A DNA stretch of 64,000 bases from a virus: the IMG/VR virus record IMGVR_UViG_3300020473_000017. One strand, written 5' to 3'. This document shows, piece after piece, positions 3,053 through 28,264 of the stretch (its first letter is position 1; every line of letters begins with the position of its first letter). Below the pieces are notes generated by a model. That model ran no database searches and had not been told where the DNA came from. It saw only the letters and a list, made by a program, of their open reading frames with translations. The position numbers and the translations under genes are program-made.

Positions 3053-3070
3053 AATTCATAAAGATAGATT

Positions 3071-8500: not shown

Positions 8501-11500
8501 CTTCAACAATTGTTTCTTTAACCTTACCTAATTTTGTAGTATCTACCCAATTATCCTGTTCTGGATATAGGTTAATATCACCAACATATGTGAATACGTT
8601 AAATGGGTTTACATTCTCAACACCAGATGCAAATGGTTGATCAAGTAAAACTGTATCATTATAAGGAAGTGTTACTAGGTCACCAGTTGTTCGTACATTA
8701 GTAGATGATGTTGAATAAACAAGAGGTATAGTAGTTGTAAAGTGAGAAGGTCTTAACTGTCCTTCTTCAAAGTCAAGAGATACCCTATAATCTAAATGTA
8801 AGGTATCACTGGTTGCAAAACTAGAGAAATTATCTACAACAAATCCATTCTTGAATCTGCTAAGACCACTGGTATCTCTAATCTCCATAGCAGCAGTCTC
8901 ACTTTCAAGTAATGAAAGTTGAGTATAATATTCTAAAGTCTTGATTCTATCTTCAAGGAACTGAATATCTTTAAATGTATATCGCTTATAATTTGTTTCT
9001 TTAATATCAATATCTTTCTCAACATCAAAAACATATGGTCTATATGTTAATGTTGCCAATAACATTGCATCTTCAACATTCTCTGGTTCAACTGGATTTG
9101 ATCCTGGAGCACCCTTTGCAATCTGAACAACATTATCTTTGTTCATAAAGACTTTATCAATCCTTGGAAGATAATATTGTAAACTTAAAATAGTAGTATC
9201 ACCTATTCCAGGAACTCCAATCACATTACCAGTAAAGGATCTTGATGAATAATCAAAAAATTCTGTTCCATTTAATGTCCATGGAGAAGCAACAGATCCA
9301 GAACCAGAAAGCTTCTCAACTACCTGTGGTCTAAAATCTATAGCATCCCTTAATGGTTGCTCATCGTAAGTTGGGATTATCTTATAATCAACTTCAGCAT
9401 ATGAATCTACTGTATAAGGATTGATACCAGCAGTAGTAAGGAAACGGTCAAAGATTACTAAAACTTGATGTGTAGGTGCTGCATAGTTAGGTTTTCTAAC
9501 AAGACTTGAGTAATCATAGAACTGATCTCTCATTCCATTATCTAAATCATAACTATCAGTTATATCCTTTGCACCAGTAACTATTTGCCCTGTGACAATT
9601 TTAAAAGTGGCAGAAGGGGATGTAATAGTCTCAGCATCTGTAAATTTATCGTCATCTACTGGAATAAAGTATACTTTATTGTTTGTACTGTCATATGAAA
9701 CAACTCTTGCTCTAGAACCAGAATCATCACCTGTAAGAACATCATCTACAGATATAGTACCAACTAAATTGGTAAACTGTAGGTTGGGTACCATCTCATT
9801 GAGAGTAGCAGATGAATTGTTAGATTCATATATTGCTTTAATCTTGAATACATCACTACAACCTAAAGATATCCTAGCATCATCTACTCTGTATCCATAT
9901 CCATCATTCTCAGCATTCTCTTGAGTTAATCCATTAACACCTGCAACTACACTCTTATTGAGTTTGAGGATCTTCATCCTTTCAGTAGTTTTTGCTTTTG
10001 CAGATCTATTAGATGCATAGACTGTAGCAATTACATCAATAGTTTGTCCATTAGTAAGACCAGTTACTGTGACAGTCTGTACGTTAGCTGACGAACCACT
10101 AAATCCAGGTGCTTGGAATATATCACCTTCATTAGTACCACCAGTAACAGACATAATGAAGTCATCATTATCTGCAGCATTCTTGAATACAAGTCCAGCA
10201 CCAGCATCAAATGAATGGGTTGTTCCTGATACTGAACCACTAATAGTTTTTCTAAAGTATCCAGCTGGATTAACGGTATTATCCTTATTAGTATTCTTTA
10301 CTGCATCAAACCCAAGCGGAGTAATAAGCTTATTCTTTTGTGCTTCCTTAATCTCAGCACGAGATCTAATTATAGAACTAGTAATAGATCCTGTAGCCAT
10401 TGCAGCTGCACCAGAACCACCAGCCTTAATAACATCCATTACATAGGCATCAGTAATACCAGTAACTTTAACCTTCTGTGCAACACTGTTGTTGGAGAAT
10501 TCAATGATGTCTCCTACTTTTAGTTGACTTTGGAAATTAGAAAGCTGTGCTGTAATTGTAGCAGTCTGTGTAGCACCACTACTTCCAAGGTTTGAAATAA
10601 TAGCAGCAGATCCAGGAAGTGCAACTCTTACATCTAATCGTGCATCAGCACAACCATTAGTACCATACTTATAAGATTTTACATCACGAAAATCGTAAAC
10701 TGTAGCAGCAGAAGCACTATTAGCTAATTGTCCTAGTTGAGTTCCACTATTTGCTTTGTTTAGGTCTAAATACTCATTCTGAGTAAAAGTACCTGTTACA
10801 TCAATAAGATTTCCAAAATTAGATGCAGAACCGCCATTAGCATCAACTGCTACGTATCCAGTAGCACCTGAAGTTCTACCTACAACAAAATCACCTATAT
10901 GCCAGTTTGCATTAGATTGAGTTTCTAATTTAGTATAGAATTTTGTATCTAATATATTAACTCTATAAACTGTAGTAGCAGTATTAACAGTACCTGATTC
11001 ATAAGCAGAATTAAGTACTCTAGTTCTACCAATAGGATTACCAGCAGGAGAACCTGGCGTAGTTATTATTTCATCTCTAAGTTCAATATCTTCATATATT
11101 GTAGGTAATTCAGAAGTATTAGTGAAGAAAACATAGTTACCAACATCAGTTGTAATAGACTGATTATCAGAACCTGTAAAAGTTCTTGGCTTATCAACAT
11201 CCTTATATGTTGTAGATAATCTTTCTGTTCTATATCCAGAGACATATGCAGAACCTGAAGATAATTGAACAGCAATATTAGCTTCATCTGCTGTATTGCC
11301 ATCTGCAGTAGTTACACCTGCTGCATATACACCATTATTAAAACCATCATCAAGATTCTCTCTTGCATCTATAGTAAATTTCTTAACATAATAGTCACCA
11401 GATTCTTCTTTAGTTCTAGTTGCAAGAACCTCATTAATGAATCCAAGGTCACTTCTTTCTACTTTCTTTTGAATCTTACCAGTATTAGTTCTTAAAAGTT

Positions 11501-13852: not shown

Positions 13853-13860
13853 TATTTATA
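13853..13860 (-). promoter_or_regulatory. T4 late promoter TATAAATA
   Basis: Exact consensus 21 nt upstream of gp8. Confidence 0.8.
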
Positions 13861-16800
13861 ATGATCTCAGACGAACTTCTGGAAGAAGTGAGACGTTTCC
13901 GCTTGTGGTGCGCGAGAATGGATATTCAACTGTAAATGTATCTACAGCTGTGACAGTAACTTTATATGCTCCGTCAAATCCATCGCCTGAAGTATGATCT
14001 AGATATATGCTCATACCTGTTGTCAGGTTATGAGCTGCAGAAGTAGTAATTGTAGATACAGTTCCTGAAGAACTATATGTTCCTGTCTGAATGGATATTG
14101 CGAAAGCTGTAGTTCCACCGTATCCTCTACCACCTGTTGCAACTGTAAGAGTGTTAGCAGACGTGTTCTTAGAACCATATAGAATCCTTTCACATGTCCA
14201 TCCTATTACATTACCAGAACTATCTGTTGCAGGATTATAATAAGGAATTAGGACTTCTCCCTCATCAGGGAAACCTATATTCTGACTAACATCAAAGTAT
14301 ATATTCTTACAAGTTAAAGTTGTATCTACAGCAGAAATACTAGAAGCCAAATATGTATTTGCTAATGCAAGAGTATTAGAGATAATTCTATCTCTTGACT
14401 TCCTCTCTATATGTACAGGATGTACAGCAAATACAGTTGGTGGTGTTAAGTATCCAGCACCACCATTTAGATTAACAATAGAGGTTACCGTACCACTTCC
14501 AGATTGAACAACTGTCTCTGCAGAAGCACCTGTTCCACTACCACCTTGGAAATAAAGAATTGGTGGAACTTCATAATTACTACCTCCATCTAATATACTA
14601 ACTGTATCAACCTTTCCATTATTAATTGTACATTCAAAATTAGCAACGGTTGGTCGTAATCCAGTATATTCATAAGTGTCTACAGAAGTTGCACTTGATA
14701 CTGTTGCTAATAGACGATCTTCACCTTCACTCTTAACCATGACTCTATCGTTAGGATCAAGAGAATTGAAAGTATTAGAAATGAATATATCTTCTGCAGA
14801 TCCAACATAAATGTAAAGACTACATGTAGATCCTGCTCTTGGAGCTTCAAAGAATTCAATAATTGATCCGTTTAATTGATATGCAACTCCAGGTTCCTGG
14901 AATACACCATTAAGGAAGATCATTACGTTATTAGCTGGTTCAACAGAACTGTTATCACTCTGTAAGGAGAATGGTTCACTATTCAACGTCATAACAAAAG
15001 TCTTTCTAGCATTATCAAAGAAAGGAGCTATGGTATCAAGTAATTGTAATTTACCAAAGTAGAATCCATAGAAGTCCATACCACTGGTAGGTGCTTCAGT
15101 AAAGGATATTGTACTTCCTGTATATGTGTATGCTTCTGTGCTACCTTTAATCTGAAGAATACTATTCAAGAATATTAAGAAGTTATCAGATGCAGGTAAT
15201 GCATAATTACTACCAGCAACTTTAGCACTGAATATCTTATCAGTTCCATCAAATGCCACAGTACCAACTTCAACTTGGAATTCTGGGTTTGATGAAGATG
15301 TTCTGGTGATTCCAGTTAGATTACCTGCTCCACCAGAAGTGGTTCCAACTGCTTGAGTAACAATTGCAGTTAAAGTAGTAATTGCAGATGCAACATCAGT
15401 ACAATCATTAGTATCATAAGTTGCATTACCACTATCATTAGTAATAGTTAAATCTTTATACTGTGCTCCTTCTGTGTAATGGTTTGTTGTAACTGAGATG
15501 TTACGCATTACCTCGCGAGCAATATCTCTAGCATGATTGAATACTAATACAGTCTGATCTTCTTCACCTTGTAAGTGAACTGTACCAACATAGTATTTCG
15601 CTGCATCGTAAGTAGCATCATTACCACCAAACTCAATATTATTAGCAACAGCCTCAGTAATTAACTTAGTATCACGAATACACTTAACAAAACTAGGAAC
15701 AACGAATGTGCTATTAGTAGCCATCATTCTTCCATAAGCAGTTGTTGCAATAAAGTCTAAGTTTTCACGTATCAATCTACCAGCATCAGCAAGTTTGTCA
15801 TATTCATATCCACCAGATTGTACAAGAGACCTTGTGACACTATTTGCACTGGCACTTACGAACTGATGTGCAAAACCAGTCTTAACAGACCCAGGTGTTG
15901 CATTAACAAACGTATGTGTATGATCACCACCAGACTTAATAGCATTAGTAGTTGCTTGAATGAAGGTATGAGTATAATTACCTCCTGCTATGACGGCTGT
16001 AGCACCTGCTGATACAAAACTATGAGCATACTGATGAGTAATAGCAGAATCTCTATTGTTAGTATTAATCGTGATAACGCCAGTTTGCTTCTTGACGGTA
16101 GCGCGAGTAATAGAGTTACTAACTGCGGAGATAAACGTATGAGCTGTCGTATTAGTTGACGGTACACTGTTTAGAACCTGTATATCGAAAGTGTTGGTTG
16201 TGACATTGTATATCTTAACCCATTGACCGCTAATTGGATCTGTAGAACGAGGATAGTTATGGAATGAAGTATGGAAGTCCTCATTACATGTAAATCTAAA
16301 GGTATCATCATCAATCTTAATTTCATCACCAGCAATGAATCCATGATTATTAATAGTTATAGTGAATACACCTGTAAGAGGATCATAAGCAGCAACAGTA
16401 GGTGTTAACTTACCTTCGGGTACAAATGTATGAGCGTGCTGTCCATTAGGTCCAGCAACACCAACATTGATATCAAACGTATCAGTTGTAACATTTGATA
16501 CAAGCATCCATTCATCATAATTAGGATCTTCTAAAGTTGGATAACTCTTAACTGTTGCATTACTATCCTTATTACATGTGAACTTCAATGCACCTTGATT
16601 GACCTTAATATAATCACCATTAGAGAAACCATGTCCAGCAACTGTTGATGTTAGTACACCTGTACTAGGTACATATACTGCAGCAGTTACAGCATGAGAT
16701 GTATATCCAACACTCTTAATAGGAATTGGTCTATCATATGCCCAATCCTTTTTCTTCTTCAATCCATTACTAACAGCACTATCAAAGGTATGTACTGTTA

Positions 16801-19800
16801 CGTTAGTAGAAGGAATAGAATCTAATACCTGAACCTTAAAGGTTGTATCATCAGCATCCCAAATAGTTAACCATCTACCACTAGCAGGATCAGTTGCTCT
16901 AGGATAAGCATGTGTGCCTCCACCTTGCGTACAAGTGAATACAATAGCACTATCATCAAATTTAACTTGATCACCGTTCACAAAGGCAGCTGCACCCCCT
17001 CCATGAGTAACAGTCATAATACCTGTAGCAGGATCATAATCTGCATCTGTTGGGGTATATGAAATAGTATCAGTTCTAGGATAAGACTGGTTGCTAACAC
17101 CACCATTATCACAACTCATTACAATACCACCATCTGCTAATTTGATGGTATCTCCTTTTCTTTGAACACAATTATCTGAAGCAGAAACAAATGTGTGTGC
17201 TTGACCTGTTGCTCCAGTTGCAACATAGAAATTCAATTGTATTGTATCATTTGTTACAGCAAGTACTTGTAACCATGATCTATAGGCAGGATCCGTTACT
17301 CTTGGATAACTATGATTTCCAGCACCAGCAGTACATGTGAATGTTAATGATTCTTTAGCGATTTGAACATAATCACCTTTATTGATAGTATGACCTTTAA
17401 TTGTTAATGTTGCTACACCTGTAGCAGGATCATAAGCAATATCAGTAGGAGTGAATGTATCATATCCACGGAACTTATGCCCACCAACAGTTAGATCAAG
17501 ATCTCCATTAGCAAGGTTAAGAGCAGCACCTGTTGGTTGATAATTTACAATAGGTGATGTTCCAACATTAACTGTGATTGTTGTTCCAGTTGTAGCAGTG
17601 ATATATTGATTAGTCTTAGCAGCTGGATCTGTTACTCTTGGATAGTTGTGTAAAGTAGCACCCAAACTAGTTAGATTTCCACTAGCAAGAGTACCATCAT
17701 TCTCCATATCACATCTAAACATCAATGAGTTAACATCAATGTTAATGCTATTTCCAACCTCAAGACTATGAGATCCAATAGTTAATTGAAGATCTCCAGT
17801 TGTTGCAGTATAGGTAGCTGCCGTTGGAGTAAATGCAACTTCAGGTGATGCACCAACATCAACGGTAAATGTGTCTGAAGTAACAGACTCGACTCCAATT
17901 ACTGCCTTGGAAGATCTATCACCTGCAGCTGGATATGAATGTCTGGAGAAGTCATCATCCATTGAGCATGTGAATGTCAATGCGTCATCATCAATACTAA
18001 CAAAGCTAGTTGCATAAAGAATGCCATCTGCCAATCCAGAAACGAATGTATGAGTAGTGGTATTAGTACAAGGAGTATCATCCAAACATTGAATATCAAA
18101 TGTATCTGGATTTACTGCTCTGATTGTAATCCACTTACCGCTAATTGGATCTGTTGAACGTGGATAAGCAGTCTGTCCACCACTACCATGAGTACAACTA
18201 AAGGTTATAGCACCATCCTTAAGTTTTACTTTATCTCCTGCTTTAAATCCATGATTATTTACTTCTATTGTAACAATACCAGTGGTTGTATTGAATGATG
18301 CACCAGTTGCAGTATGAGATGTAGCAGCAGTCAATCCATGGTTCTCAACACTCATTGACAAAGCACCTGTAGATGCATTGAATGTAGCTGAGGTCGGTGT
18401 CATTGCCTTCTCTACTGCCTGTCCAATATTAACTTTGAAATTATTTGTAGATACTTCAAATACATTGAGCCAGTTACCTGCAGCAGGATCAGTAGATCTT
18501 GGATATGTGTGATTTGTAGCATATCCATCACGAGAGCACTTAAAGGTTAAACCATCAGCAGCAAACTGAACAAAATCACCATTAGAAAGACCATGAGCAG
18601 TAGCCCAGACTTCCATTATACCAGTAGTAGCATCATAATCACAGTATGATGGTTGATACTGATAAGTTGCTAGTGAATCAAATGTATGTGTAGTAGTATT
18701 TGTAGCAGCAGTACCATTTAATGCATTAACAGTAAACGTAGTAGAAGATATAGCATCAACTGGGACATTCTTACCAGAAATAGGATCTGAAGAACGAGGA
18801 TATGAATGAACACCGCCACCCTGCGTACAAGTGAAGTTCAATGAGTTATTTGAGAACTTAACTGTAGATGTGGCAATGCTTAAACCAGAAGCAACAGCAG
18901 ATACGAATGAATGAGCATCAGTGTTTGTAGAAGGAATTGTATCCAGTACAGTTACATCAAATGTGTTAGTTGTTATGTTTGATACTTCTAACCATCTATC
19001 ACTAGCATAGTCAGTATTACGTGGATAATCCTTTTGTGCAGCAGTACCAGAAGCACCACCAAACGCACAACTTAATTTAAGTGAACCATCAGCAAATTTA
19101 ACCTGATCACCTGCCTTCAATCCATGTGCCACTACAGTAACTGTCATAATACCTGTAGTTGGATTATAATCAGCATCAGTTACAGTTGTAGTTGTAGGAG
19201 CAGTTAAAGTATGCTCTCCAACAGTTAATTCTAGTACACCTGTACTAGGAGTGTATGATGCGGTACTAGGTACATATGAATTAGTTAATGGTTTTCCAAT
19301 TGGACTGATTCCTAAGATATCGTTGTCTGTATATCCGTTACCTGGGTTGTTTAATACTACATTCTTAACACCACCATCAACAACAACTATATCACCAGTA
19401 GCACCAACACCTGTTCCAATCTTATTGAATAATGGAATATTTGCATATGTTCCATCTGCATATCCTGTACCAGCAGTTAACCCATCAGAAGTGTCTCTAA
19501 CAGGACTTAAATTAGTATTAACCTGTACAGTAATGGTAGTAGCAGTTTCTGCTGTAATTGCCAAGGTAGCACCAAATGCTTCATCAGATGGTCTTGGATA
19601 AGCATGTGTACTAGCGTGATTATCAGCAGCACAAGTAAACTTAAGAGAACTATCAGCAATCTGAATAGTATCACTAGTCGTATAACTATGAGATCCAATA
19701 GTTAATTCTAAGAGACCTGTAGCAGGAGTGTATGTAGCATTTGTTACATTCTTCTGTGTGTTACTATCACTTACCACAGTTACAGCATTGGTTGCTGTAC

Positions 19801-22800
19801 CACCAACATAGGTATGAGCAGCACTACCAGACATACCAGTATCTAAAGTCTTAAGTTCATCACCAATCTGATCTAATTGGAAGCTAGAAGTATATGATGC
19901 ACGATCATAGTACATTACCAAAGCACTAGAACCTACTTTAGGTGCAGTAGAGAATGTTATAACATCACTAGCAAAGGTATAGTTATTTGGATTCTGAACA
20001 ATACCATCAATTATAACTAAGAACTGTGATTTAACTGAGGTCTTAGAAATCTTAGTAGTAATTAATGTATTATCAACTCTTGTTGTGAACTGAGTATTAA
20101 CCCCATCAATACCTACTGTAAATTTATTAATAGCAGCAGTAGATCCAACATTAACAGTAAATGTATCATTAGTAGTTGCTGTAATATCTAATATCTTTCC
20201 ACCATGTCCTATTGGATCTGTTGATCTTGGATATGTGTGGTTAGTTGCATTGTTATCCATTAGACAAGTTAATGTCAATGCATCATCAGCAATAGAGATC
20301 TTATTATTAGTATTCAACCCATGTCCAGCACTATGAATCACTAAATTACCATCTGCAGGAGTATATACAACATTTGTTGGGTTAAAGAAACTTCCGTTAT
20401 TTGCTACAATACCATCTGTATTACAAGAAACAAATGTATGTGTACCTACGCTAAGTGAGGATAGTACAACTGTACTACCTCCAAGAGAAGATTTCAAAGA
20501 TATTGTATTAGCATCAATAACATCAACGTAATATACGGTTCCTGTTGTTAATCCACCAATATCACCTCTAAAGGTAACAGTTTGATTCTCAACCAATCCA
20601 TGATTAGTTAATGTAATTCTATTATTACTTAAGTCAACTACACTAGAAGATGCTCCATCAAAGCTAATATCTCTAGATGTAATATCATCAACCTTATATG
20701 AGACACAAGTTAAGATTTTCTGAATATCTAACAACTGTCTACCGAATATTTGAACCTCTGTGGGAACAGCTGCTGTATAATCTGGTTTACCTAGAGCAAA
20801 GTTATTAATGGTTGCCAACTTACCAGTATTCTTAGCAGATGGTTTTGGTGTTACATATGTAAGACCATTAAAGGTTGCACTAATACTATTACTACCAGGA
20901 ACCCACCAATCTGTTGAACTAGTGGTAAGTAAATCAAGAGTAGGTTTACCTCTATAAGATTTCTTAGATGCTTGTGATAATATTTGTGTACCAACAACTT
21001 TAAATCCTGCAGGGTGAGCAGCAAATTTAAGTGGATTCTTCCAATCTCTAATATTAATAGGTGAAGATATCTCATATGAGAATTCTTGGAACCTATTACT
21101 ATCATATAATCTCTGTTCGTTAATATCTAAGAAACCAGTAGTACGTTCCCATTGAGAAGAAGATATACTAATTGGAGAAACTTCAAATACAGCATCTGCT
21201 CTATCAAATGCATGAATCGAACCAAATGATGAAGATTCTTCACCAAATATAGGTTCACCAACTTTAAACTCACCTTCACTAATTTCTACACTAACAACAC
21301 GTCCTGCTGGATCCCAATTCTTAACATATCCAAATGCAGTATATGATGCTGTAGATGCACCCTGATAAACTCTTTCTCCAACTAAGAAAGTTGCAGGTCT
21401 CATATATGCAGTAATAACATCACCAAGATCAGTAGTATCTAATGTGAAGGTTGTTAATCCATTAGCATCTCCAACTGGAGCAGAAGTAAATGTAATTGTT
21501 GTTGGAGTATTAGCAATTGCATTTGCCTCAGATGTTGCTAATTTAACTTGATTATTTGCCAATCCATTTGAACCATTAGCAGCAACAACATAATATGTTG
21601 TATTAATTGCCAATGGAGCTGGGAAAGTACCAACTACCTCATTTAAGGTTACTGCAGTACCTGTTGGCATCTTTGTATTATATGGGAAGTTTAAAGTACT
21701 ATTAGACATTAATGCAACCCAATTATGAGTTACTCTTGCATTTACGACTGGAGCAGATAAGAATCCTCTACCTCCATTCCTAACCTCTACCGATTGTATA
21801 ACTTCATTCTCAACAATCGCTTCTAATTGATAAAGTGACCCACTTCCACCAGTAAGAACAATTGTTGGTTGTGATACAAAATTCTGACCGCCATTAGTAA
21901 CATCAAGGTAATCAATAACTTGAGTTCTTGTTAATTGAAGATTATAGGTTGTATTTAACTCTGGTTTTAGAGTTCTATCATGACTATAGTTAAATGTAAT
22001 ATTATCTCCACCAATCTTTAATATCTTACCTAAATCAGAAGATTTAAGTAATAAAGAAGCACCTTTTCCTGTTTTCTGTGTAATATTAACTACAGGAGCA
22101 TTCTGATATAATGTTCCTCCATCTTCAATATTAATAGAAGAAACACCTTCATTTACAATACTTGAATTAAACTTAGCGTTGATTCCACTACCACCACTAA
22201 CATCTACATTAGGTGCTGATAGATAACCAGATCCAGTGTTAGTTACTGTAATAGCATCAATAGATGCATTTAACACACAATTGGTAATTGCTGGATCAAG
22301 ATGTGTCAGTTTATCAACTGTCACAGTAGCATCATGAGTAACATCAGTACCACCCATTGATGCACCAGAAATTGTAATAACATCACCTAGTGCATATGTA
22401 CTACCACCATCAGTAACAGTAATACTTTCAATAGTTCCTGCACCATTAACAATTACTGTAAACTCAACATTAGTTCCTCCAGTAGGAGCAACACTCTTTT
22501 GAGCAACACCAGTATATGTTCCAGTTGTATAATTGGTACTAGACTGTGTAGTAATTGATACAGTGTTTACTAGTCCATATGTGGGATCATCAAGATCAAT
22601 AGTAGGAGCAGCTCTGTAATTAGATCCTGCTGCAATAATACTAACAGATTCTAATTTACCAACATTTGGACCTGAGCTGGGAATAACGGCCTGGACGTTA
22701 GCATGTATTCCACCTACAGTTGTAACCTTAGCTTCAGCATCAGAACTATAAACCTTACCTCTAGCATTGTTAGATGCCCATGGAGTATACATGATCCACC

Positions 22801-25800
22801 CTCTAGTTGCTGCACTAAAGTTACCAGCTCCATCTTTTAGGTTATTTCGCAGAGGTTGAATTCTCAATATGGAAGTTGTTGGATCCCAATTAATAACTTT
22901 ACCTCTAGCAGTTTGAGCACCTAGAACTGGTTCTGATATAACAATTTCATCTTTAGCAAACGAACCACTACCTAATACTTCAGTTAGAGTTAAATCTACA
23001 AAATCTGGTAAAGTTACATATGCTACTGGAGCACCTGCAGGATTATAACCAGATCCCATGTTAGCAATAGTAACACCAGATACTGAACCAGAAATAGTAG
23101 CAACTGCGGTTGCACCAGATCCAGATCTAGTGGATCCAGTCAATTTTGGAAGAGATGAGTAGTTCCTTCCTGAATCACCAATAGAAATTTTTCCAATACC
23201 GCCTGTTGGGTATATTGAAGTTGTAACATAATTAATGCCACTTGTATACCCACTTTCGGGTTCTTTTCCAACAATATAGGTAAAATTAAGATCAGTTACA
23301 TCTTTTACAATATTTGTGCCAGATAAAGGCTCATTCATTACTGTAAGGTAACTTCCAGCAATAGTTCCTTGAATATCGAAATAATAGAAGATTCCAGGAA
23401 GATCTGTCATCAATATAGTGATAGAAGTCTGTTGACCCGTTTGTGCATTGCTTGTTTCTGCAGATATGTTCTTATAAGTGAAAATATCGGTATTTGCGGG
23501 ATCTAACGTAAATGCAAGTGTTTTTCCAACATTACTTGCATCAGAAGTGTCAAATGTGTAAGAATGCCCGTCAATCAACTCTAACTTAGGTTCTTGGACA
23601 TAAACATCAGCAGAAGTGACTGTAGCGGCAGCTGTAGACCCATGATTGCGTTTTACAGTGAATCTACGAAGAGTTTCCGTTCTAATTACTTCATAATCAG
23701 TTTTATCGTATGTAGATGGAGAAACTCCTGAAATATTAACAGTATCGCCTATTGCAACTTGATGAGCAAGACTTGTATGACATACTGCCTCTCTTAAAGT
23801 CTCAGTTAATGTAATACTAAAACTAGACCCTCCACCGTTACCTAAGTTCTGATCACTAGCAGAAATAGTATCTCCAACATTATATGCAGTACCAAACTCT
23901 GTAATTGTAACTGTAGTAATTGCACCACCAGAAATGACTATAGTTGCCTTTGCATTCCTACCACTATTATTAGTAGTCAATGGAACGTCAGTATAAGTTC
24001 CATTTTCATATCCAGAACCACCAGTGATAGATGACCATCCACCTTGGACTAAATTACCGTCTGTACGAGTTCTTACGTAAGTCCAAGACAATGTACCATC
24101 AGATGCTGTTCCTGATAAGTGAGTAGGAGCATTTCCTGCACCAGAATCAGATGTACCAGCTGCAGCAGCCTTATAAACTCTATTTGCAACATAAACAAGA
24201 TCATTTTTAGCATATGCAGTACTATTAGTCCAAGGACCAATTAACTTCATACTTACTAGGTCAAAATACTCAAAATGGTACTTATTATTGATAATTTTAG
24301 TATTAAGAGATCTTGTAGATGAATTATCAGCAATAGTGATAGTAAGTTGATCATCACCAACCAAATAATGTTTATCTGAAGTTGTTAAGGTTGCAGTAAC
24401 AACATCATCGTCATCTACAGCATAATTGAGAGAAGAAACCGTTGTACCAGTAACTGCAGAGATTGCTGCACTAACACCTTCTCCTCCAGAAGTACTATTA
24501 TCGAATAATAGTCGATCATTGACCTTATAACCAGTACCACCACCTTCTACTAGATATTGATCGATATTAGCAGAAGAATATTGGTTAGTAGAACTAACTG
24601 TTAACGATTCTGCAATTCCACCACGGATTACTGGATAATAACTAAAATATCCAATACCATCTTCAACATATTGAAGAATCTCTCCAGTTTCAAGTGTAAT
24701 GAGAGTTGTAGTGTCTTCTAGTGCCAAAACAAAGTCAACTTTGTTATCAAGTTGCTTTCTCTTAGTGGTTATGTTATCAGTTCCGATATATGGTGCTTTA
24801 TACCTAATTGAGTCTTCTGTAAAGTTTTTCTGAAGACCATTTCCGTCCCAGTTGACTTCATCCGCTTCTGAGTAGAAATTTGGTCCTACAAAATACGGAA
24901 ATTTCGGATTTCCGCTGATTCCATCAATTGTACAGAAATATGCATAAACTCCATCTGGAAATTCTGGAGTTACGCAGAATCTACCGTTATATTGGTCTAA
25001 ACCACCTAATCCCTCTACATATTCATAATCTTCAATAAAGGTGCCCATAGGGTCAGCAAGACCACTTAGAAGAGCATCCCTACTTGTCTTCAATCGGTAG
25101 CTTGTACCAGGTTGACTATATGCATTGTATGGATTCTGGTTTTCGGGATCCTCATACCCATAAGGTCCATATATGGGGTGTCCATCATAAGCCCATCCAA
25201 TAATAGGTGAGTGTTTAGTTGGATTTAACTCTTTCCATGGTGGATTATTAGGATCTGTGTCAGGTTCAATATTATCAGCTAAGTAATATCTAAGATTCTT
25301 AGGATTGTACAAATATCCATACTCTCCACCATATATTCCACTATTCTCACCTTCCATTACTGCACCACTAGATTGGTCAGTCACTTTCCTTGCATTGAAG
25401 GATACTTGACCAACTTCTGTTGCAGTTGCTGATTCGTTAAAGGTTAATTCTGTTAATTTGGTTGTAAATGACGCACCAGTTCCTGGATATACAATACTGA
25501 TGTTTGTATTACCTACAGTATATCCAATTCCTTTGTTAGTTACTACAATACCAGTAACAATGTTCTGTGATAGGTCTACTTGAGCAAATGCAGTAGCACC
25601 AACTCCATCTCCAGTAATAACAACGTCTGGAGCACCAAAATACCCACTACCACCAAAAGTTACGATAGCACTTTCTATCTTTCCATTCAAAATTGATGGA
25701 TAGGCAACAGCACCACTACCAGAGATTAATTTGATGACTGGTTCGTAAGTATACTGTGATCCAGCAGCAGTAATAGTAATATCCTTAAGAGGTCCACGTA

Positions 25801-28264
25801 CAACAGCAGTTGCAGTTGCTCCTGCACCATTACCACCAGTAATTATAATTGTTGGTAATCCAGCAGCCTGTGTATATCCACTTCCAGAGTTGGTGACTGT
25901 GATTCCAGTAACCTTACCCTCAGTTATCTGTGCAACAGCAGTTGCCTGTGTACTACTGGATGCACCACCTCCACTAATAGAGACACTTGGTTCACTTGTG
26001 TACCCGCCACCCCCATTTGTAACGTTAATAGAAATAACTCTACCGTCTACCTCTGCAGTTGCAGATGCAGCAAGACCTAAGTAAGTCCATTCAATAGTTC
26101 CTAGAGTTACATTACCAGATGTATGTGTTGGATACAATGTATTGCTACTTTGCCCTACATTCTTAGATTGATATCTCTTTCCACCCCATTTAACAACTAT
26201 TCCACTAGCATAGTTGGTTGCAAGCTTATAATCTGGTTCAAATTCAACTGTAGGTGGGTTTTGAATATCATATCCATCTCCACCTGAATTTTTAGTGATT
26301 GATTTTAATCCACCATACTTTCTAGTAGTACTTCCCTTATATGAGAATAAAGGAACGCCATTAGCACCAATTCCAACTTGACCTATAGGAGTTGGAGTCT
26401 TTGTACTCTTAGTAGATGTCTGTAATGGTATTCTCTTAAGATATCTCTGGTTTCCTGGATCTATATCAGCTGCTGCGAAAGGTCCAATCTTATGTGATGG
26501 TATACCTGTACTAGCTACAATACAATCTGTTGATGACTTGTAGGTATTACTGGTATCTGCAATAAACTTGGAAACTATAGCATTATAGGAATAGTCAGAT
26601 GATCCATATGCAAATTCTCTAGCAATAAAGAATTCCTTACCTGCTAATATCGGAGCAGCAGGAGTTGACGAGAGAACAAATTCAAAAATGTAATTATCAA
26701 CAATACCAATCACATCATGTTGGTTGTTGTAGATATCTTCCTCAGCATTAAGGATTCTAACCTTATCATCTCTTCTTAATTGATGCTTTTCCTTTGTTGT
26801 AACAGTTACCCTAACAGCACCATTAGGATCGGGTGTTCCTAGGGTTGCTGTAACCCCTCTAAGTGCTCTTCTGACGTTATATACAAAAGAACTCCATATT
26901 GGGTCAAGACTATCGAAACCAGGTGCTAGAGGGGTCGTAACCTTACTTTGTGGAAGGTAATACTTACCACCTTTTGATATATTAACACCTCTGGTTCCAC
27001 CATAGACCTTTAATTGGATTTCAGACCCATCTACGTTGCTTTTACCGTAAATCTTGTATGCAGCAAAAACTTCTTGCCCTGCATCATGTGCTACATTGAG
27101 TGTACTCTCTCTAGCACGATTACAACCTAAAAATTGGTTAACCGTTTTGTCAGTATAGCTAATAATTTCATCTTCAATTCTAAATCGACCATTTTTCTCT
27201 GGCCAACCTAATGTAGAATCAACAGTAATGATATCATCACTTAAACTACCAGTTAAATCCGCAGCAAGAATTGATTTGTAAGGAGTTACAAAAGTTCCAA
27301 GTGCATTATTGGTATCTACGTCAACTTCAAAGATTGAACCAGTCTGAGTGAATACTTCAACAACACCTTTAACGTATATACGTGCTGCATTGATACTTGG
27401 ATCATTTGCATCAGCTTCTTGGTATAAAACTTCCCCAACAAGTTCAGTTGGATCTCCTGTTATAGCAACACAGCGAATTACTTCCCTAGAAGTGTAATAT
27501 GCGTCCGATGGTTTGAAAATTCGGTCTCTTGGATAAGAAATTTCTGATTCTACGCCAAAAATCGTTCTCAAAACAAATTGGAACGATCTTGTAGACCCTT
27601 TAGAAGCATAAAAGTCCTTAATTCGCTTAATTACGGTACTTTCAGTAAGTCCAGAGTAAAAATTCTTCGGATAAGTGGATAAAAGCAGTTCTTTGAACTG
27701 TCCCAACATGAAAAGTGGGAACAGGTTGTTCAAATTAACAACTTTTGACCCAAGAACGTGTTCTGTGGGAGTTGTTGATGAGAAAATGAAGTCTCCTGCC
27801 TCTCCAATTGCTTTTACAGCATCAAAACCCCTTGAACAGGTATTAAAAAGGGTTGCACCCTTACTTTGGTAGTAAATTATCTCATCATCTATTAAAATTA
27901 GTCCCTCACTGGGAAAATCACGAGTTGAAGTAACGTCAACAGTAGTAGAAGAGGTAGTTACCGTCGAAATTGTTGTTGTTTCAGTAACTAGGTTACCATA
28001 ATTGTCAAGATTATAATAATCAGCCCAATTATTGATTATATCTAAGCAATATCCCTTTAATTCTTGTGATTGATAGTATGCTTTAACGAACTCTATGAAT
28101 GTAGGAAAGCTATCCTGTATAAAACTGGCAAATTGGCCAGTAATACTATCAGATATCTGCGATCTAGATTCAGGACTTACTTCCGATGGAACTGGTGTTG
28201 TCGTGACCGTCGTAGTCGGAGTAGTCCACGACCCTACTTTCCAGGATGAATTCGATTGAGCCAT
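13856..28264 (-). CDS. gp7: Baseplate wedge initiator gp7-like, 4802 aa, with many inserted domains (YHYH-like segment, GxGY repeats, nested Cys/His repeats)
   Basis: N-terminal FIEFVKAYY..QE, IKRIKDFYASKG; HPAGFKVVG motif; HSPIIGWAYDGHPIYGPYG, LDQYNGRFCVTPEFP; between gp6 and gp8. Confidence 0.88.
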   Translation of the reverse strand: MAQSNSSWKVGSWTTPTTTVTTTPVPSEVSPESRSQISDSITGQFASFIQDSFPTFIEFVKAYYQSQELKGYCLDIINNWADYYNLDNYGNLVTETTTISTVTTSSTTVDVTSTRDFPSEGLILIDDEIIYYQSKGATLFNTCSRGFDAVKAIGEAGDFIFSSTTPTEHVLGSKVVNLNNLFPLFMLGQFKELLLSTYPKNFYSGLTESTVIKRIKDFYASKGSTRSFQFVLRTIFGVESEISYPRDRIFKPSDAYYTSREVIRCVAITGDPTELVGEVLYQEADANDPSINAARIYVKGVVEVFTQTGSIFEVDVDTNNALGTFVTPYKSILAADLTGSLSDDIITVDSTLGWPEKNGRFRIEDEIISYTDKTVNQFLGCNRARESTLNVAHDAGQEVFAAYKIYGKSNVDGSEIQLKVYGGTRGVNISKGGKYYLPQSKVTTPLAPGFDSLDPIWSSFVYNVRRALRGVTATLGTPDPNGAVRVTVTTKEKHQLRRDDKVRILNAEEDIYNNQHDVIGIVDNYIFEFVLSSTPAAPILAGKEFFIAREFAYGSSDYSYNAIVSKFIADTSNTYKSSTDCIVASTGIPSHKIGPFAAADIDPGNQRYLKRIPLQTSTKSTKTPTPIGQVGIGANGVPLFSYKGSTTRKYGGLKSITKNSGGDGYDIQNPPTVEFEPDYKLATNYASGIVVKWGGKRYQSKNVGQSSNTLYPTHTSGNVTLGTIEWTYLGLAASATAEVDGRVISINVTNGGGGYTSEPSVSISGGGASSSTQATAVAQITEGKVTGITVTNSGSGYTQAAGLPTIIITGGNGAGATATAVVRGPLKDITITAAGSQYTYEPVIKLISGSGAVAYPSILNGKIESAIVTFGGSGYFGAPDVVITGDGVGATAFAQVDLSQNIVTGIVVTNKGIGYTVGNTNISIVYPGTGASFTTKLTELTFNESATATEVGQVSFNARKVTDQSSGAVMEGENSGIYGGEYGYLYNPKNLRYYLADNIEPDTDPNNPPWKELNPTKHSPIIGWAYDGHPIYGPYGYEDPENQNPYNAYSQPGTSYRLKTSRDALLSGLADPMGTFIEDYEYVEGLGGLDQYNGRFCVTPEFPDGVYAYFCTIDGISGNPKFPYFVGPNFYSEADEVNWDGNGLQKNFTEDSIRYKAPYIGTDNITTKRKQLDNKVDFVLALEDTTTLITLETGEILQYVEDGIGYFSYYPVIRGGIAESLTVSSTNQYSSANIDQYLVEGGGTGYKVNDRLLFDNSTSGGEGVSAAISAVTGTTVSSLNYAVDDDDVVTATLTTSDKHYLVGDDQLTITIADNSSTRSLNTKIINNKYHFEYFDLVSMKLIGPWTNSTAYAKNDLVYVANRVYKAAAAGTSDSGAGNAPTHLSGTASDGTLSWTYVRTRTDGNLVQGGWSSITGGSGYENGTYTDVPLTTNNSGRNAKATIVISGGAITTVTITEFGTAYNVGDTISASDQNLGNGGGSSFSITLTETLREAVCHTSLAHQVAIGDTVNISGVSPSTYDKTDYEVIRTETLRRFTVKRNHGSTAAATVTSADVYVQEPKLELIDGHSYTFDTSDASNVGKTLAFTLDPANTDIFTYKNISAETSNAQTGQQTSITILMTDLPGIFYYFDIQGTIAGSYLTVMNEPLSGTNIVKDVTDLNFTYIVGKEPESGYTSGINYVTTSIYPTGGIGKISIGDSGRNYSSLPKLTGSTRSGSGATAVATISGSVSGVTIANMGSGYNPAGAPVAYVTLPDFVDLTLTEVLGSGSFAKDEIVISEPVLGAQTARGKVINWDPTTSILRIQPLRNNLKDGAGNFSAATRGWIMYTPWASNNARGKVYSSDAEAKVTTVGGIHANVQAVIPSSGPNVGKLESVSIIAAGSNYRAAPTIDLDDPTYGLVNTVSITTQSSTNYTTGTYTGVAQKSVAPTGGTNVEFTVIVNGAGTIESITVTDGGSTYALGDVITISGASMGGTDVTHDATVTVDKLTHLDPAITNCVLNASIDAITVTNTGSGYLSAPNVDVSGGSGINAKFNSSIVNEGVSSINIEDGGTLYQNAPVVNITQKTGKGASLLLKSSDLGKILKIGGDNITFNYSHDRTLKPELNTTYNLQLTRTQVIDYLDVTNGGQNFVSQPTIVLTGGSGSLYQLEAIVENEVIQSVEVRNGGRGFLSAPVVNARVTHNWVALMSNSTLNFPYNTKMPTGTAVTLNEVVGTFPAPLAINTTYYVVAANGSNGLANNQVKLATSEANAIANTPTTITFTSAPVGDANGLTTFTLDTTDLGDVITAYMRPATFLVGERVYQGASTASYTAFGYVKNWDPAGRVVSVEISEGEFKVGEPIFGEESSSFGSIHAFDRADAVFEVSPISISSSQWERTTGFLDINEQRLYDSNRFQEFSYEISSPINIRDWKNPLKFAAHPAGFKVVGTQILSQASKKSYRGKPTLDLLTTSSTDWWVPGSNSISATFNGLTYVTPKPSAKNTGKLATINNFALGKPDYTAAVPTEVQIFGRQLLDIQKILTCVSYKVDDITSRDISFDGASSSVVDLSNNRITLTNHGLVENQTVTFRGDIGGLTTGTVYYVDVIDANTISLKSSLGGSTVVLSSLSVGTHTFVSCNTDGIVANNGSFFNPTNVVYTPADGNLVIHSAGHGLNTNNKISIADDALTLTCLMDNNATNHTYPRSTDPIGHGGKILDITATTNDTFTVNVGSTAAINKFTVGIDGVNTQFTTRVDNTLITTKISKTSVKSQFLVIIDGIVQNPNNYTFASDVITFSTAPKVGSSALVMYYDRASYTSSFQLDQIGDELKTLDTGMSGSAAHTYVGGTATNAVTVVSDSNTQKNVTNATYTPATGLLELTIGSHSYTTSDTIQIADSSLKFTCAADNHASTHAYPRPSDEAFGATLAITAETATTITVQVNTNLSPVRDTSDGLTAGTGYADGTYANIPLFNKIGTGVGATGDIVVVDGGVKNVVLNNPGNGYTDNDILGISPIGKPLTNSYVPSTASYTPSTGVLELTVGEHTLTAPTTTTVTDADYNPTTGIMTVTVVAHGLKAGDQVKFADGSLKLSCAFGGASGTAAQKDYPRNTDYASDRWLEVSNITTNTFDVTVLDTIPSTNTDAHSFVSAVASGLSIATSTVKFSNNSLNFTCTQGGGVHSYPRSSDPISGKNVPVDAISSTTFTVNALNGTAATNTTTHTFDSLATYQYQPSYCDYDATTGIMEVWATAHGLSNGDFVQFAADGLTFKCSRDGYATNHTYPRSTDPAAGNWLNVFEVSTNNFKVNIGQAVEKAMTPTSATFNASTGALSMSVENHGLTAATSHTATGASFNTTTGIVTIEVNNHGFKAGDKVKLKDGAITFSCTHGSGGQTAYPRSTDPISGKWITIRAVNPDTFDIQCLDDTPCTNTTTHTFVSGLADGILYATSFVSIDDDALTFTCSMDDDFSRHSYPAAGDRSSKAVIGVESVTSDTFTVDVGASPEVAFTPTAATYTATTGDLQLTIGSHSLEVGNSINIDVNSLMFRCDMENDGTLASGNLTSLGATLHNYPRVTDPAAKTNQYITATTGTTITVNVGTSPIVNYQPTGAALNLANGDLDLTVGGHKFRGYDTFTPTDIAYDPATGVATLTIKGHTINKGDYVQIAKESLTFTCTAGAGNHSYPRVTDPAYRSWLQVLAVTNDTIQLNFYVATGATGQAHTFVSASDNCVQRKGDTIKLADGGIVMSCDNGGVSNQSYPRTDTISYTPTDADYDPATGIMTVTHGGGAAAFVNGDQVKFDDSAIVFTCTQGGGTHAYPRATDPASGRWLTIWDADDTTFKVQVLDSIPSTNVTVHTFDSAVSNGLKKKKDWAYDRPIPIKSVGYTSHAVTAAVYVPSTGVLTSTVAGHGFSNGDYIKVNQGALKFTCNKDSNATVKSYPTLEDPNYDEWMLVSNVTTDTFDINVGVAGPNGQHAHTFVPEGKLTPTVAAYDPLTGVFTITINNHGFIAGDEIKIDDDTFRFTCNEDFHTSFHNYPRSTDPISGQWVKIYNVTTNTFDIQVLNSVPSTNTTAHTFISAVSNSITRATVKKQTGVITINTNNRDSAITHQYAHSFVSAGATAVIAGGNYTHTFIQATTNAIKSGGDHTHTFVNATPGSVKTGFAHQFVSASANSVTRSLVQSGGYEYDKLADAGRLIRENLDFIATTAYGRMMATNSTFVVPSFVKCIRDTKLITEAVANNIEFGGNDATYDAAKYYVGTVHLQGEEDQTVLVFNHARDIAREVMRNISVTTNHYTEGAQYKDLTITNDSGNATYDTNDCTDVASAITTLTAIVTQAVGTTSGGAGNLTGITRTSSSNPEFQVEVGTVAFDGTDKIFSAKVAGSNYALPASDNFLIFLNSILQIKGSTEAYTYTGSTISFTEAPTSGMDFYGFYFGKLQLLDTIAPFFDNARKTFVMTLNSEPFSLQSDNSSVEPANNVMIFLNGVFQEPGVAYQLNGSIIEFFEAPRAGSTCSLYIYVGSAEDIFISNTFNSLDPNDRVMVKSEGEDRLLATVSSATSVDTYEYTGLRPTVANFECTINNGKVDTVSILDGGSNYEVPPILYFQGGSGTGASAETVVQSGSGTVTSIVNLNGGAGYLTPPTVFAVHPVHIERKSRDRIISNTLALANTYLASSISAVDTTLTCKNIYFDVSQNIGFPDEGEVLIPYYNPATDSSGNVIGWTCERILYGSKNTSANTLTVATGGRGYGGTTAFAISIQTGTYSSSGTVSTITTSAAHNLTTGMSIYLDHTSGDGFDGAYKVTVTAVDTFTVEYPFSRTTSGNVSLLPEVRLRSL
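15810..20440 (-). repeat. 13 copies of a ~100-aa repeat (YxPxTG..HG/GD..L.F.C..HxYPRxTDP..TF.V/HTFVS) inside gp7, 11 of them nested
   Basis: Counted 13 YP[R/A/T]xxD motifs, each preceded by a conserved Cys, in the translation. Confidence 0.85.

What the first reader, a model, noticed from the sequence alone, without database searches (positions are those of the whole stretch)
15810..19280. Recursively nested ('matryoshka') repeat domains in gp7 with bracket-matched closing strands
Seen: the repeat has three parts, A (YxPxTG.L....H), B (GD....L.F.C..HxYPRxTDP..TF.V) and C (HTFVSA...). The 11 copies here are not tandem. The order parses as A1[A2B2C2]B1 C1'{A3B3{A4[A5B5C5]B4{A6B6{A7[A8B8C8]B7'[A9B9C9]B7''[A10B10C10'[A11B11C11]]B7 end, followed by four consecutive C strands (HSFVSA, HTFIQA, HTFVNA, HQFVSA at about 16024-15830). 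Exactly four units (3, 4, 6, 7) lack their own C strand, matching these four. Unit 7 is split even inside its YPR..D motif (QSYPR ... KDWAYD). Inference: domains were repeatedly inserted into loops of identical domains, giving a branched, tree-like appendage on the baseplate rather than a linear fibre.
Basis: seen in the sequence. Interest (0 to 1): 0.8.

Follow-up and report, generated by a model that had tools for sequence, protein, structure and literature searches.

The report
Nested beta-barrel tree in cyanophage gp7
A giant baseplate protein of an uncultured marine cyanophage carries 11 copies of one small beta-barrel domain inserted inside each other up to five deep, with the chain finishing the open barrels in reverse order on its way back, a rare build known so far mainly from cyanobacterial RNA polymerase.

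Summary
Residues 2996-4142 of the 4802-aa gp7 (window 13856-28264, minus strand) hold 11 copies of a ~95-aa beta-barrel. Six are contiguous. Five are split or lack their last strand. The split pieces cover complementary stretches of the domain profile, and joining them in silico restores single full-length matches.

Orthologues between the same conserved flanks carry 1040-1693 aa and differ by whole units. In some, unit 2 is absent and A1 joins B1 directly.

A complex model docks the three remote closing strands on units 3, 4 and 6. It scores 0.77 against 0.00 for the best control, and the last strand pairs with unit 3, the first opened. That is last-in-first-out.

- The first "orphan" strand follows unit 7's last B strand at normal spacing.
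- Units 10 and 11 are tandem in one loop.
- Nesting depth is five.
- There are leaf-type and trunk-type subtypes, not identical domains.

The fold is nearest the endosialidase and E1-FCCH inserted barrels (Z about 7). No Pfam family covers it. The closest known architecture is the six-level nested SI3 of cyanobacterial RNA polymerase.

The three-dimensional shape and the function, probably host-surface contact, remain inferred. This scan has already reported the same architecture on other cyanophage DNA.

The parts
13856..28264 (-). gp7 (baseplate wedge protein), 4802 aa
   Evidence: ORF. phrog_2885 baseplate wedge subunit. The N-terminal 700 aa are 72% identical to gp7 of Prochlorococcus phages P-HM2/P-HM1. 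Flanked by gp6-type (phrog_219) and gp8-type (phrog_438) genes, as in P-HM2.
15839..19279 (-). Nested block, residues 2996-4142: 11 barrel units
19199..19279 (-). A1 (residues 2996-3022), opening hairpin of host unit 1
   Evidence: hmm 3-26.
18890..19189 (-). Unit 2, complete leaf barrel inserted in the A|B loop of unit 1
   Evidence: hmm 2-97, 119.7 bits. Absent as a whole in orthologues P0084, P0089 and P0107-P0118.
18665..18874 (-). B1+C1 (3131-3200), remainder of unit 1
   Evidence: hmm 28-95. Joined to A1 it scores 98.3 bits over hmm 2-95.
18413..18661 (-). Unit 3 A+B (3202-3284), open trunk barrel lacking its last strand
   Evidence: hmm 2-83. Its B1 strand 3239-3244 pairs with the last remote strand in the complex model.
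18326..18403 (-). A4 (3288-3313)
   Evidence: hmm 1-26.
18029..18316 (-). Unit 5, complete leaf barrel in the A|B loop of unit 4
   Evidence: hmm 1-97, 114.6 bits.
17843..18013 (-). B4 (3418-3474), open
   Evidence: hmm 28-81. A4+B4 scores 76.9 bits over hmm 1-81.
17552..17833 (-). Unit 6 A+B (3478-3571), open trunk barrel
   Evidence: hmm 1-81.
17465..17545 (-). A7 (3574-3600)
   Evidence: Weak hmm 2-26 match. PSSM A token of 17.4 bits.
17171..17455 (-). Unit 8, complete leaf barrel in the A|B loop of unit 7
   Evidence: hmm 1-98.
17069..17164 (-). Unit 7 piece 2 (3701-3732, GD..C..QSYPR)
   Evidence: hmm 26-56.
16766..17059 (-). Unit 9, complete leaf barrel inserted after YPR of unit 7
   Evidence: hmm 1-98.
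16706..16753 (-). Unit 7 piece 3 (3838-3853, KDWAYDRPIPIKSVG)
   Evidence: Aligns to hmm ~55-70 when the pieces are joined.
16115..16696 (-). Units 10 and 11, two complete leaf barrels in tandem in one loop of unit 7
   Evidence: hmm 1-94 and 2-98. Unit 11 folds with pLDDT 97.9.
15995..16093 (-). Unit 7 piece 4 plus its C strand (4058-4090, ..TGVITINT..AHSFVSA)
   Evidence: hmm 70-96. The four pieces plus C score 60.5 bits over hmm 2-96. Low pLDDT in the whole-block model.
15839..15985 (-). Three remote closing strands: HTFIQA (4099), HTFVNA (4117) and HQFVSA (4133), read as C6, C4 and C3
   Evidence: PSSM tokens. Strands with pLDDT 62-88. They dock on units 6, 4 and 3, with HQFVSA on unit 3.
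19511..20446 (-). Two solitary, circularly permuted (C-A-B) copies upstream (2607-2710, 2815-2918), separated by an unrelated stretch
   Evidence: Both are absent from the 74%-identical orthologues P0005 and P0006.

Best explanation
The region encodes an out-and-back, branched module of 11 small beta-barrels inside gp7, the giant baseplate wedge protein of an uncultured T4-like marine cyanophage. The nearest cultured relatives are Prochlorococcus phages P-HM1 and P-HM2.

Each barrel has three parts: an opening hairpin (A), a core with the F.C...YPR..D motif (B), and a closing H.F strand (C). In the barrel, C lies antiparallel to the F.C strand and next to the first A strand, so it closes the barrel.

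The N and C ends of a barrel therefore meet. A whole barrel can be dropped into a loop of another. Four loop sites are used here: A|B, after YPR, before the last B strand, and before C.

The resulting tree is 1[2], then 3{4[5]{6{7[8][9][10 11]}}}, which is five levels deep. The chain runs outward through unfinished trunk barrels 3, 4, 6 and 7. It decorates them with complete leaf barrels. It then returns, supplying the missing closing strands in reverse order: C7, C6, C4, C3. The chain re-enters the conserved gp7 body close to where it left.

Shown here: the fragment pattern, the whole-unit gain and loss among orthologues, and the barrel fold of a unit. Supported by models only: the docking of the remote strands in last-in-first-out order.

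Inferred: the module projects from the baseplate periphery as a size-tunable appendage for contacting the host surface. The block also evolves faster and varies more in domain number than its flanks.
For: **Fragment complementarity and virtual excision.**

**Token order.** Four C strands come after four open units.

**Same order in relatives.** Relatives at 74-92% identity from independent assemblies keep the order.

**Variation between conserved flanks.** Between the same two anchors, which are 54-63% and 67-81% identical to the query, orthologues carry 1040-1693 aa. They differ by whole units at nested positions, including exact loss of unit 2.

**Family-wide resumption test.** Observed 125/45/58 exact resumptions against 8/3/2 in shuffled order.

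**A related protein family.** Its module AB AB Ab [ABC] b C C C has exactly three remote strands for three open units. There are 65 such modules in 13 proteins.

**Covariation.** In 523 contiguous units (Neff 343), the B1 strand pairs antiparallel with the C strand: position pairs 43-88, 40-93 and 38-94.

**Complex model.**
- Units 3, 4[5] and 6 (residues 3200-3575) were modelled against the three remote strands (4090-4160).
- The model supports binding; it does not show it. The score was 0.77 and the best of 3 controls was 0.00.
- In the tool's calibration, that mark was reached by 58 of 80 solved complexes and 2 of 110 mismatched pairs. These counts hold only roughly, because my own alignment was used.
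- The runs agree in at least 86% of contacts. The partner's pLDDT is at least 69.
- The lowest-error pairs are 3239-3244 (LTFKCS, unit 3) with 4131-4138 (FAHQFVSA, the last strand), in the register Cys3243-His4133.
- The outbound linker 3284-3288 pairs with the return linker 4127-4128.
- The interface includes the first A strand and the B1 strand of each of units 3, 4 and 6. Leaf unit 5 contributes little.

**Structure predictions.**
- Whole-block AF2 model: mean pLDDT 74.5, with the remote strands as beta-strands at pLDDT 62-88.
- Single unit: pLDDT 97.9.

**Fold.** Phi92 endosialidase barrel Z 7.1 (rmsd 2.2 A over 75 residues); UBA1 FCCH Z 6.7.

**gp7 identity and synteny.**
Against: - Coordinates of the AF2 models could not be read. 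Strand pairing rests on one complex model of cut pieces of a single chain, which may pass partly from general knowledge of strand complementation.
- Only the pairing of the last strand with unit 3 is explicit among the listed low-error pairs. C4 and C6 are inferred from the interface lists and linker lengths.
- The start of A7 and the C7 region have pLDDT below 50, so closure of unit 7 is not supported by a model.
- pTM is 0.46, so the spatial shape is unknown.
- Threading the remote strands by residue couplings did not favour any order.
- Fold matches at Z about 7 are within the range the tool says is common for unmatched models.
- No evidence here bears directly on ligand binding or on the module's position in the virion.
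Confidence: 0.82

Rival explanations
1. Beads on a string. The region is an ordinary, partly decayed repeat array. The short A-only and B-only pieces are remnants of degenerate copies. The HTF strands fold together as a separate small sheet.
For: Many phage fibre proteins are tandem arrays with degenerate copies. The whole-block model has pTM 0.46, and coordinates were not inspected.
Against: - The fragments are exactly complementary in profile coordinates and rejoin into full-length matches. Scores collapse when the rejoin point is shifted.
- The invariant His22, Cys41 and His90 are kept in the pieces of the split units.
- An orthologue lacking unit 2 has A1 fused to B1.
- The remote strands dock on the open barrels with score 0.77 against 0.00 for controls.
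Confidence: 0.04
2. The nested topology is real, but the closing strands are not strictly last-in-first-out within one chain. Because they are near-identical, they may complete neighbouring barrels in another order. They may also be swapped between gp7 subunits of adjacent wedges, cross-linking the baseplate periphery.
For: - The C strands differ little.
- Coupling-based threading gave a flat rank distribution over the six permutations in 62 modules.
- The A7 and C7 regions are poorly modelled.
- Domain swapping is common in phage tail proteins (my own knowledge).
Against: - The complex model puts the last strand on the first-opened unit with about 1 A expected error. It also pairs the 3-to-4 outbound linker with the C4-to-C3 return linker.
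- Outbound and return linkers are both about 8-11 residues. That is too short to skip a barrel in an extended trunk (sequence).
- In the related (b(b(b(b)))) modules, the only closer that also carries a missing B strand always comes first, as last-in-first-out requires.
Confidence: 0.1
3. The architecture is as described, but the module is a purely structural strut or spacer that sets baseplate geometry or stiffness. It has no ligand-binding role.
For: - The invariant residues (His22, Cys41, Tyr52-Pro53-Arg54, Asp57, His90, Phe92) look like a fold-stapling or metal site rather than a variable binding surface.
- No carbohydrate-binding family was detected by sequence.
Against: - Domain number between conserved flanks varies from about 9 to more than 15 among close orthologues. 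The block is less conserved than its flanks: 42-46% identity against 54-81%. That is typical of host-contact parts.
- The same barrel occurs in proteins annotated as tail fibres and tail proteins of cultured cyanophages.
- The nearest solved fold is the endosialidase barrel.
Confidence: 0.3

Closest known systems
SI3 insertion of cyanobacterial RNA polymerase beta' (RpoC2), a set of recursively nested hybrid-motif (SBHM/HABAS) domains. A 2026 survey of 2.7 million domains reports it as a six-level, eight-domain nesting and its most complex case (PMC13114784).
   Same: One small beta domain type is inserted recursively into copies of itself. Hosts carry several inserts, so the tree branches. 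Domain definitions are discontinuous of the A1-B-A2 kind.
   Different: - The domain family and host protein differ: a virion baseplate protein, not a polymerase.
- At least four insertion sites per barrel are used here.
- Circularly permuted copies occur.
- A trunk of barrels is left open only at the last strand and closed by a run of consecutive return strands.
- Domain number varies widely among close orthologues.
- Fold similarity to SBHM was not established here.
Beta-barrel domain of phage endosialidases (Pfam PF12195; PDB 4hiz, 1v0e)
   Same: The best structural match: Z 7.1, rmsd 2.2 A over 75 residues. There is also a weak sequence hint, E = 0.12. By my own recollection, not checked here, that barrel is itself an inserted domain in a phage host-recognition protein.
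   Different: - Sequence identity is only 13-16%.
- The match is below Pfam's threshold.
- The His/Cys/His and YPR..D invariants are specific to the cyanophage family.
- Endosialidases carry a single copy, not nested.
FCCH domain of ubiquitin-activating enzyme E1 (Pfam PF16190)
   Same: Structural match at Z 6.7. Precomputed PF16190 hits are recorded on some homologues (P0017, P0029) and on 28% of one Atlas cluster. By my own recollection, not checked here, FCCH is also an inserted barrel.
   Different: No PF16190 hit on this gp7. The context is unrelated and there is a single copy.
gp7 of T4-like cyanophages, such as P-HM2 gp7 (4454 aa)
   Same: It is the orthologue: 72% identity over the N-terminal 700 aa and the same gene order gp25-gp6-gp7-gp8. 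It contains the same barrel family, including one A[ABC]BC nest.
   Different: P-HM2 gp7 has only about 7 units and one two-level nest. The window's gp7 has 13 units, 11 of them in the five-level tree.

Membership tests
Recursively nested domain insertion (A1-B-A2 architecture applied to itself) | Host domain fragments on either side of an insert are complementary and together make one complete domain | tested here: met
   Profile coordinates are 3-26 + 28-95 for unit 1 and 1-26 + 28-81 for unit 4. Four pieces cover 2-76 for unit 7. Joined pieces give single matches of 98.3, 76.9 and 48.5 bits.
Recursively nested domain insertion (A1-B-A2 architecture applied to itself) | Inserted units are complete domains | tested here: met
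   Units 2, 5, 8, 9, 10 and 11 match hmm 1/2 to 94-98 at 104-127 bits. Unit 11 folds at pLDDT 97.9.
Recursively nested domain insertion (A1-B-A2 architecture applied to itself) | An inserted domain is itself a host (depth of at least 2) | tested here: met
   3{4[5]{6{7[8][9][10 11]}}} gives five levels.
Recursively nested domain insertion (A1-B-A2 architecture applied to itself) | Split fragments reunite in three dimensions | tested here: inconclusive
   The complex model supports docking of the remote strands on units 3, 4 and 6: 0.77 against 0.00 for the best control. Whole-block AF2 fragments are confident. But coordinates were not readable, unit 7 closure is poorly modelled, and there is no solved structure.
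T4-type gp7 baseplate wedge protein | Sequence homology to annotated gp7 and a position between gp6 and gp8 | tested here: met
   72% identity to P-HM2/P-HM1 gp7 over 700 aa. phrog_2885. The neighbours are phrog_219 (gp6-type) and phrog_438 (gp8-type). Same order in P-HM2.
T4-type gp7 baseplate wedge protein | Physical location in the baseplate wedge | not testable with these tools
   Needs virion proteomics or cryo-EM.
Pfam PF12195 End_beta_barrel / PF16190 E1_FCCH | Sequence match above the family's gathering score | tested here: not met
   There is no Pfam hit for the unit. PF12195 reaches only E = 0.12 and 12.8 bits against a cut-off of 35.
Pfam PF12195 End_beta_barrel / PF16190 E1_FCCH | Same fold | tested here: inconclusive
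   Z is 7.1 and 6.7. Foldseek gives TM about 0.5 with E above 0.04. The tool notes that Z below 8 may reflect only a common arrangement.
SBHM / HABAS hybrid motif (the SI3 domain) | Same fold or sequence family | tested here: inconclusive
   No SBHM entry stood out among the 50 listed structural matches. Absence from a list does not exclude the fold.

The most novel reading that the evidence does not exclude
Marine cyanomyoviruses may use this barrel as a general building grammar. Leaf-type and trunk-type barrels would be inserted, permuted and deleted as cassettes to grow branched host-contact appendages of tunable size on baseplates and fibres. An invariant His-Cys-His site, possibly binding a metal, would staple together the three sequence-distant parts of every barrel, so that discontinuous barrels still fold. 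Domain-tree variation would then be a major and so far unrecognised axis of cyanophage host-range evolution.
Probability: 0.3. Interest if true: 0.85.

Novelty: new variant of a known kind. Interest (0 to 1): 0.68.

Why it matters
Deep self-nesting of one domain is very rare. A 2026 survey of 2.7 million domains names the six-level RNA-polymerase SI3 as its extreme case (PMC13114784).

Here the same principle appears in a different, uncurated domain family, in the virion of some of the ocean's most abundant phages. It has added features: an out-and-back trunk closed by consecutive return strands, several insertion sites per barrel, and circular permutation.

The family comprises 767 representative clusters, nearly all multi-copy giants. 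Cultured cyanophages carry the barrel in proteins annotated as baseplate, tail and fibre proteins.

This gives three things:
- A natural test case for how discontinuous domains fold.
- A reason why these giant proteins resist ordinary domain annotation.
- A concrete hypothesis for how cyanophages vary their host-contact surfaces.

Tried and rejected
- **Megablast against phage records.** No match for the region.
- **Sequence and profile searches of the PDB with a unit.** Nothing significant. The best hit was iota-carbonic anhydrase at E = 0.0013 with no qualifying stretch, treated as chance.
- **Foldseek against the PDB.** No match at E <= 0.001.
- **Reading model coordinates in the script box.** The files are not provided, so no contact map of the 1176-residue model could be made.
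- **Global stack parsers over 121 homologues**. They are clean for simple families: P0011 and P0047 parse as [[[o]]] repeats and P0084 balances. For complex proteins, one missed weak fragment derails the rest. In gp7 itself a false A token at 4054, or the missed A7, breaks the count. Totals differed only modestly from shuffles, so I replaced this with a local resumption test.
- **Threading remote C strands onto open units by residue couplings learned from contiguous units.** The rank of the last-in-first-out order was about uniform (14, 9, 8, 7, 13 and 11 of 62 modules), so this is uninformative.
- **Whole-genome search.** No genome is held for this window.
- **Recent in-situ duplication as the origin.** Rejected. 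DNA copies are only 60-88% alike over short motifs. Leaf and trunk subtypes are closer to their counterparts in distant proteins than to their neighbours.
- **Literature searches for a description of nested gp7 or cyanophage barrels.** None found.

Full report
**What is there.** The finding lies in one ORF on the minus strand, window 13856..28264, encoding 4802 aa. It is the gp7-type baseplate wedge protein of a T4-like marine cyanophage.
- It matches phrog_2885.
- Its first 700 residues are 72% identical to gp7 of Prochlorococcus phages P-HM2, P-HM1 and MED4-213.
- Its neighbours are gp6-type and gp8-type wedge proteins, in the order seen in P-HM2.
- There is no near-identical DNA among deposited phages. 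Metagenome assemblies hold proteins 100, 92, 88 and 74% identical with the same layout.

**Checking the observation.** I built a profile from the six contiguous copies and searched gp7 with it. I then repeated the search with a profile from 523 contiguous copies taken from 121 homologues. The hits are fragments whose profile coordinates fit together.
- 2999-3022 (positions 3-26) and 3133-3198 (28-95) flank complete unit 3027-3125.
- 3288-3313 (1-26) and 3420-3473 (28-81) flank complete unit 3317-3412.
- 3204-3285 and 3478-3570 stop at positions 83 and 81, so they lack only the last strand.
- Unit 7 is in four pieces, separated by complete units 8, 9 and 10+11.

Weight-matrix scans at a 1e-4 false-positive threshold place four closing strands at 4079, 4097, 4115 and 4131.

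Joining the pieces in silico restores single full-length matches: 98.3, 76.9 and 48.5 bits for units 1, 4 and 7. Moving the rejoin point by 10-40 residues collapses the score.

DNA copies are only 60-88% alike over short stretches and irregularly spaced. This is an old, diverged architecture, not an assembly artefact.

I make three corrections:
- The first 'orphan' strand follows unit 7's last B strand at the normal 11-residue spacing.
- Units 10 and 11 are tandem in one loop.
- gp7 has two further, circularly permuted C-A-B copies upstream.

The tree is 1[2], then 3{4[5]{6{7[8][9][10 11]}}}, five levels deep.

**Evidence from relatives.** Twenty orthologues share both conserved flanks. The flanks are 54-63% and 67-81% identical to the query, yet the orthologues carry 1040 to 1693 residues between them. 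In their alignment the differences are whole units at nested positions.
- P0084, P0089 and P0107-P0118 lack a 91-residue stretch equal to unit 2, so A1 runs directly into B1.
- Others have extra whole units, including permuted ones, inside the F.C...YPR loop.

Across 117 distinct architectures, a unit interrupted at A|B, after YPR, or before the last B strand resumes at exactly the next profile position after one or more complete inserts. This happens in 125, 45 and 58 cases, with 12, 12 and 14 mismatches. Shuffled fragment order gives 8, 3 and 2 exact cases and 95, 64 and 62 mismatches. Relatedness inflates the counts, but not the contrast.

A separate protein family (P0011, P0018, P0019, P0047 and others) repeats the module AB AB Ab [ABC] b C C C, which has three remote strands for three open units. 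I found 65 such modules in 13 proteins. The closer that also carries the missing B strand always comes first.

**Structure.** One unit, predicted with 150 diverse copies, gives pLDDT 97.9 and eight short strands.
- Its best solved matches are the inserted beta-barrel of phi92 endosialidase (Z 7.1, rmsd 2.2 A over 75 residues) and the FCCH barrel of E1 enzymes (Z 6.7). FNR-type barrels follow at Z about 5.
- Foldseek finds nothing at E <= 0.001 in the PDB.
- No Pfam family covers the unit.
- Near-identical predicted folds occur in proteins of cultured Synechococcus phages annotated as baseplate wedge initiator, tail protein and long tail fibre, and in viral Atlas clusters.

The whole block (1176 residues, 21 orthologues) gives mean pLDDT 74.5 and pTM 0.46. 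The three remote strands are beta-strands at pLDDT 62-88. The start of A7 and the C7 region are below 50. Coordinates could not be read.

**Do the remote strands complete the open barrels, and in which order?** Covariation in 523 contiguous units pairs the F.C strand antiparallel with the closing strand (position pairs 43-88, 40-93 and 38-94).

I then modelled units 3, 4[5] and 6 (3200-3575) against the three remote strands (4090-4160).
- The model supports binding; it does not show it. The score was 0.77 and the best of 3 controls was 0.00.
- In the tool's calibration, that mark was reached by 58 of 80 solved complexes and 2 of 110 mismatched pairs. These counts hold only roughly, because my own alignment was used.
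- The runs agree in at least 86% of contacts, and the partner's pLDDT is at least 69.
- The lowest-error pairs join 3239-3244 (LTFKCS of unit 3) to 4131-4138 (FAHQFVSA, the last strand). The register puts Cys3243 opposite His4133, which is the register predicted by the covariation.
- The outbound 3-to-4 linker (3284-3288) pairs with the return linker 4127-4128.
- The interface contains the first A strand and the B1 strand of each of units 3, 4 and 6. It contains little of leaf unit 5.

So the first-opened barrel is closed by the last strand. With return linkers of only 8-10 residues, equal to the outbound ones, the other two strands must close units 4 and 6.

This is model-based evidence on cut pieces of one chain. 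Such pieces may pass partly from general strand complementation. Closure of unit 7 is not supported by a confident model.

**How it most likely works.** A barrel whose first and last strands are neighbours can be inserted into a loop of another barrel, or circularly permuted, without breaking either fold.

gp7 must return to the baseplate core after any excursion. An appendage built by insertion does that automatically. The chain goes out through unfinished trunk barrels, hangs complete leaf barrels on them, and zips the trunk closed on the way back.

Leaf-type and trunk-type barrels are distinct subtypes, closer to their counterparts in distant proteins than to their neighbours. Cassettes therefore seem to be reused, rather than duplicated in place.

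Function is inferred. Four things favour a host-surface contact or reach module:
- Domain number varies between conserved flanks.
- Conservation is lower inside the block than in the flanks.
- The barrel occurs in proteins annotated as tail fibres in cultured cyanophages.

A purely structural strut is the main functional rival.

**Comparison with what is known.** The closest described architecture is the SI3 insertion of cyanobacterial RNA polymerase beta'. A 2026 survey reports it as a six-level recursive insertion and its most complex case (PMC13114784).

The present case shares the principle. It differs in domain family, host protein, number of insertion sites, circular permutation, and the run of return strands. 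I found no paper describing it.

Earlier notes of this scan report the same architecture, with deeper trees, in other cyanophage giants. These are not independent evidence, but they show this window is one member of a wider phenomenon.

The family has 767 representative clusters among 1.84 billion.

**Verdict.** The nested-insertion reading is supported. Last-in-first-out closure is supported by a model for the outermost pair and by linker geometry for the rest. The three-dimensional shape and the function remain open.

Noticed in passing
gp7 residues in every unit; e.g. window 16115-16405 (unit 11): Three residues, one from each sequence-distant part of the barrel, are almost invariant in 523 units: His22 (99%), Cys41 (100%) and His90 (100%). 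Also near-invariant are Tyr52-Pro53-Arg54 and Asp57. Position 50 is His in 61% and Lys in 33%. In the complex model, Cys41 of unit 3 lies directly opposite His90 of the remote strand. This may be a metal or stapling site that holds discontinuous barrels together.
   Followed up: partly
window 19511-20446 (gp7 2607-2710 and 2815-2918): There are two solitary copies in circularly permuted order (H.F strand first, then A, then B). Both are absent from the 74%-identical orthologues P0005 and P0006. Permuted units also occur as inserts inside the F.C...YPR loop of other orthologues.
   Followed up: partly
gp7 nested block compared with other proteins (P0011, P0019 etc.): The barrels fall into a leaf type (contiguous; Trp63; linker L.xxPSTNT) and a trunk type (ends T.T.NVG and hosts inserts). 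Unit 10 is 58% identical to the leaf barrel of a distant protein, but only 32-45% identical to the other units of this gp7.
   Followed up: partly
L001 20001-33365 (Prochlorococcus phage P-HM2 gp7): The cultured relative's gp7 (4454 aa) has only about 7 barrel units and a single two-level nest (3289-3313 / 3317-3417 / 3424-3493). The deep tree is therefore a feature of the uncultured lineage. P-HM2 could still serve for a structural test of the basic nest.
   Followed up: partly
window 24923-25330 (gp7 residues 979-1114): A YHYH domain (PF14240, E = 4e-25) sits in the N-terminal third of gp7. It is shared by most gp7 orthologues in the homologue list.
   Followed up: no
window 5574-12317 (-): A 2247-aa protein lies downstream of gp8 (phrog_358, function unknown). 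It is syntenic with the gene annotated 'VrlC protein' in P-HM2, and it carries none of the barrel units.
   Followed up: no
homologues P0009, P0017, P0023, P0050 and others: Several giant homologues carry precomputed hits to PF00502 (the phycobilisome protein family) and PF13385 (LamG-like). A phycobilisome-family hit in a virion protein is odd.
   Followed up: no
window 30879-31457 (-): A 192-aa 2OG-Fe(II) oxygenase (phrog_61) lies just upstream of the baseplate genes, as in P-HM2. Another first-stage note links it to a SET-domain gene.
   Followed up: no
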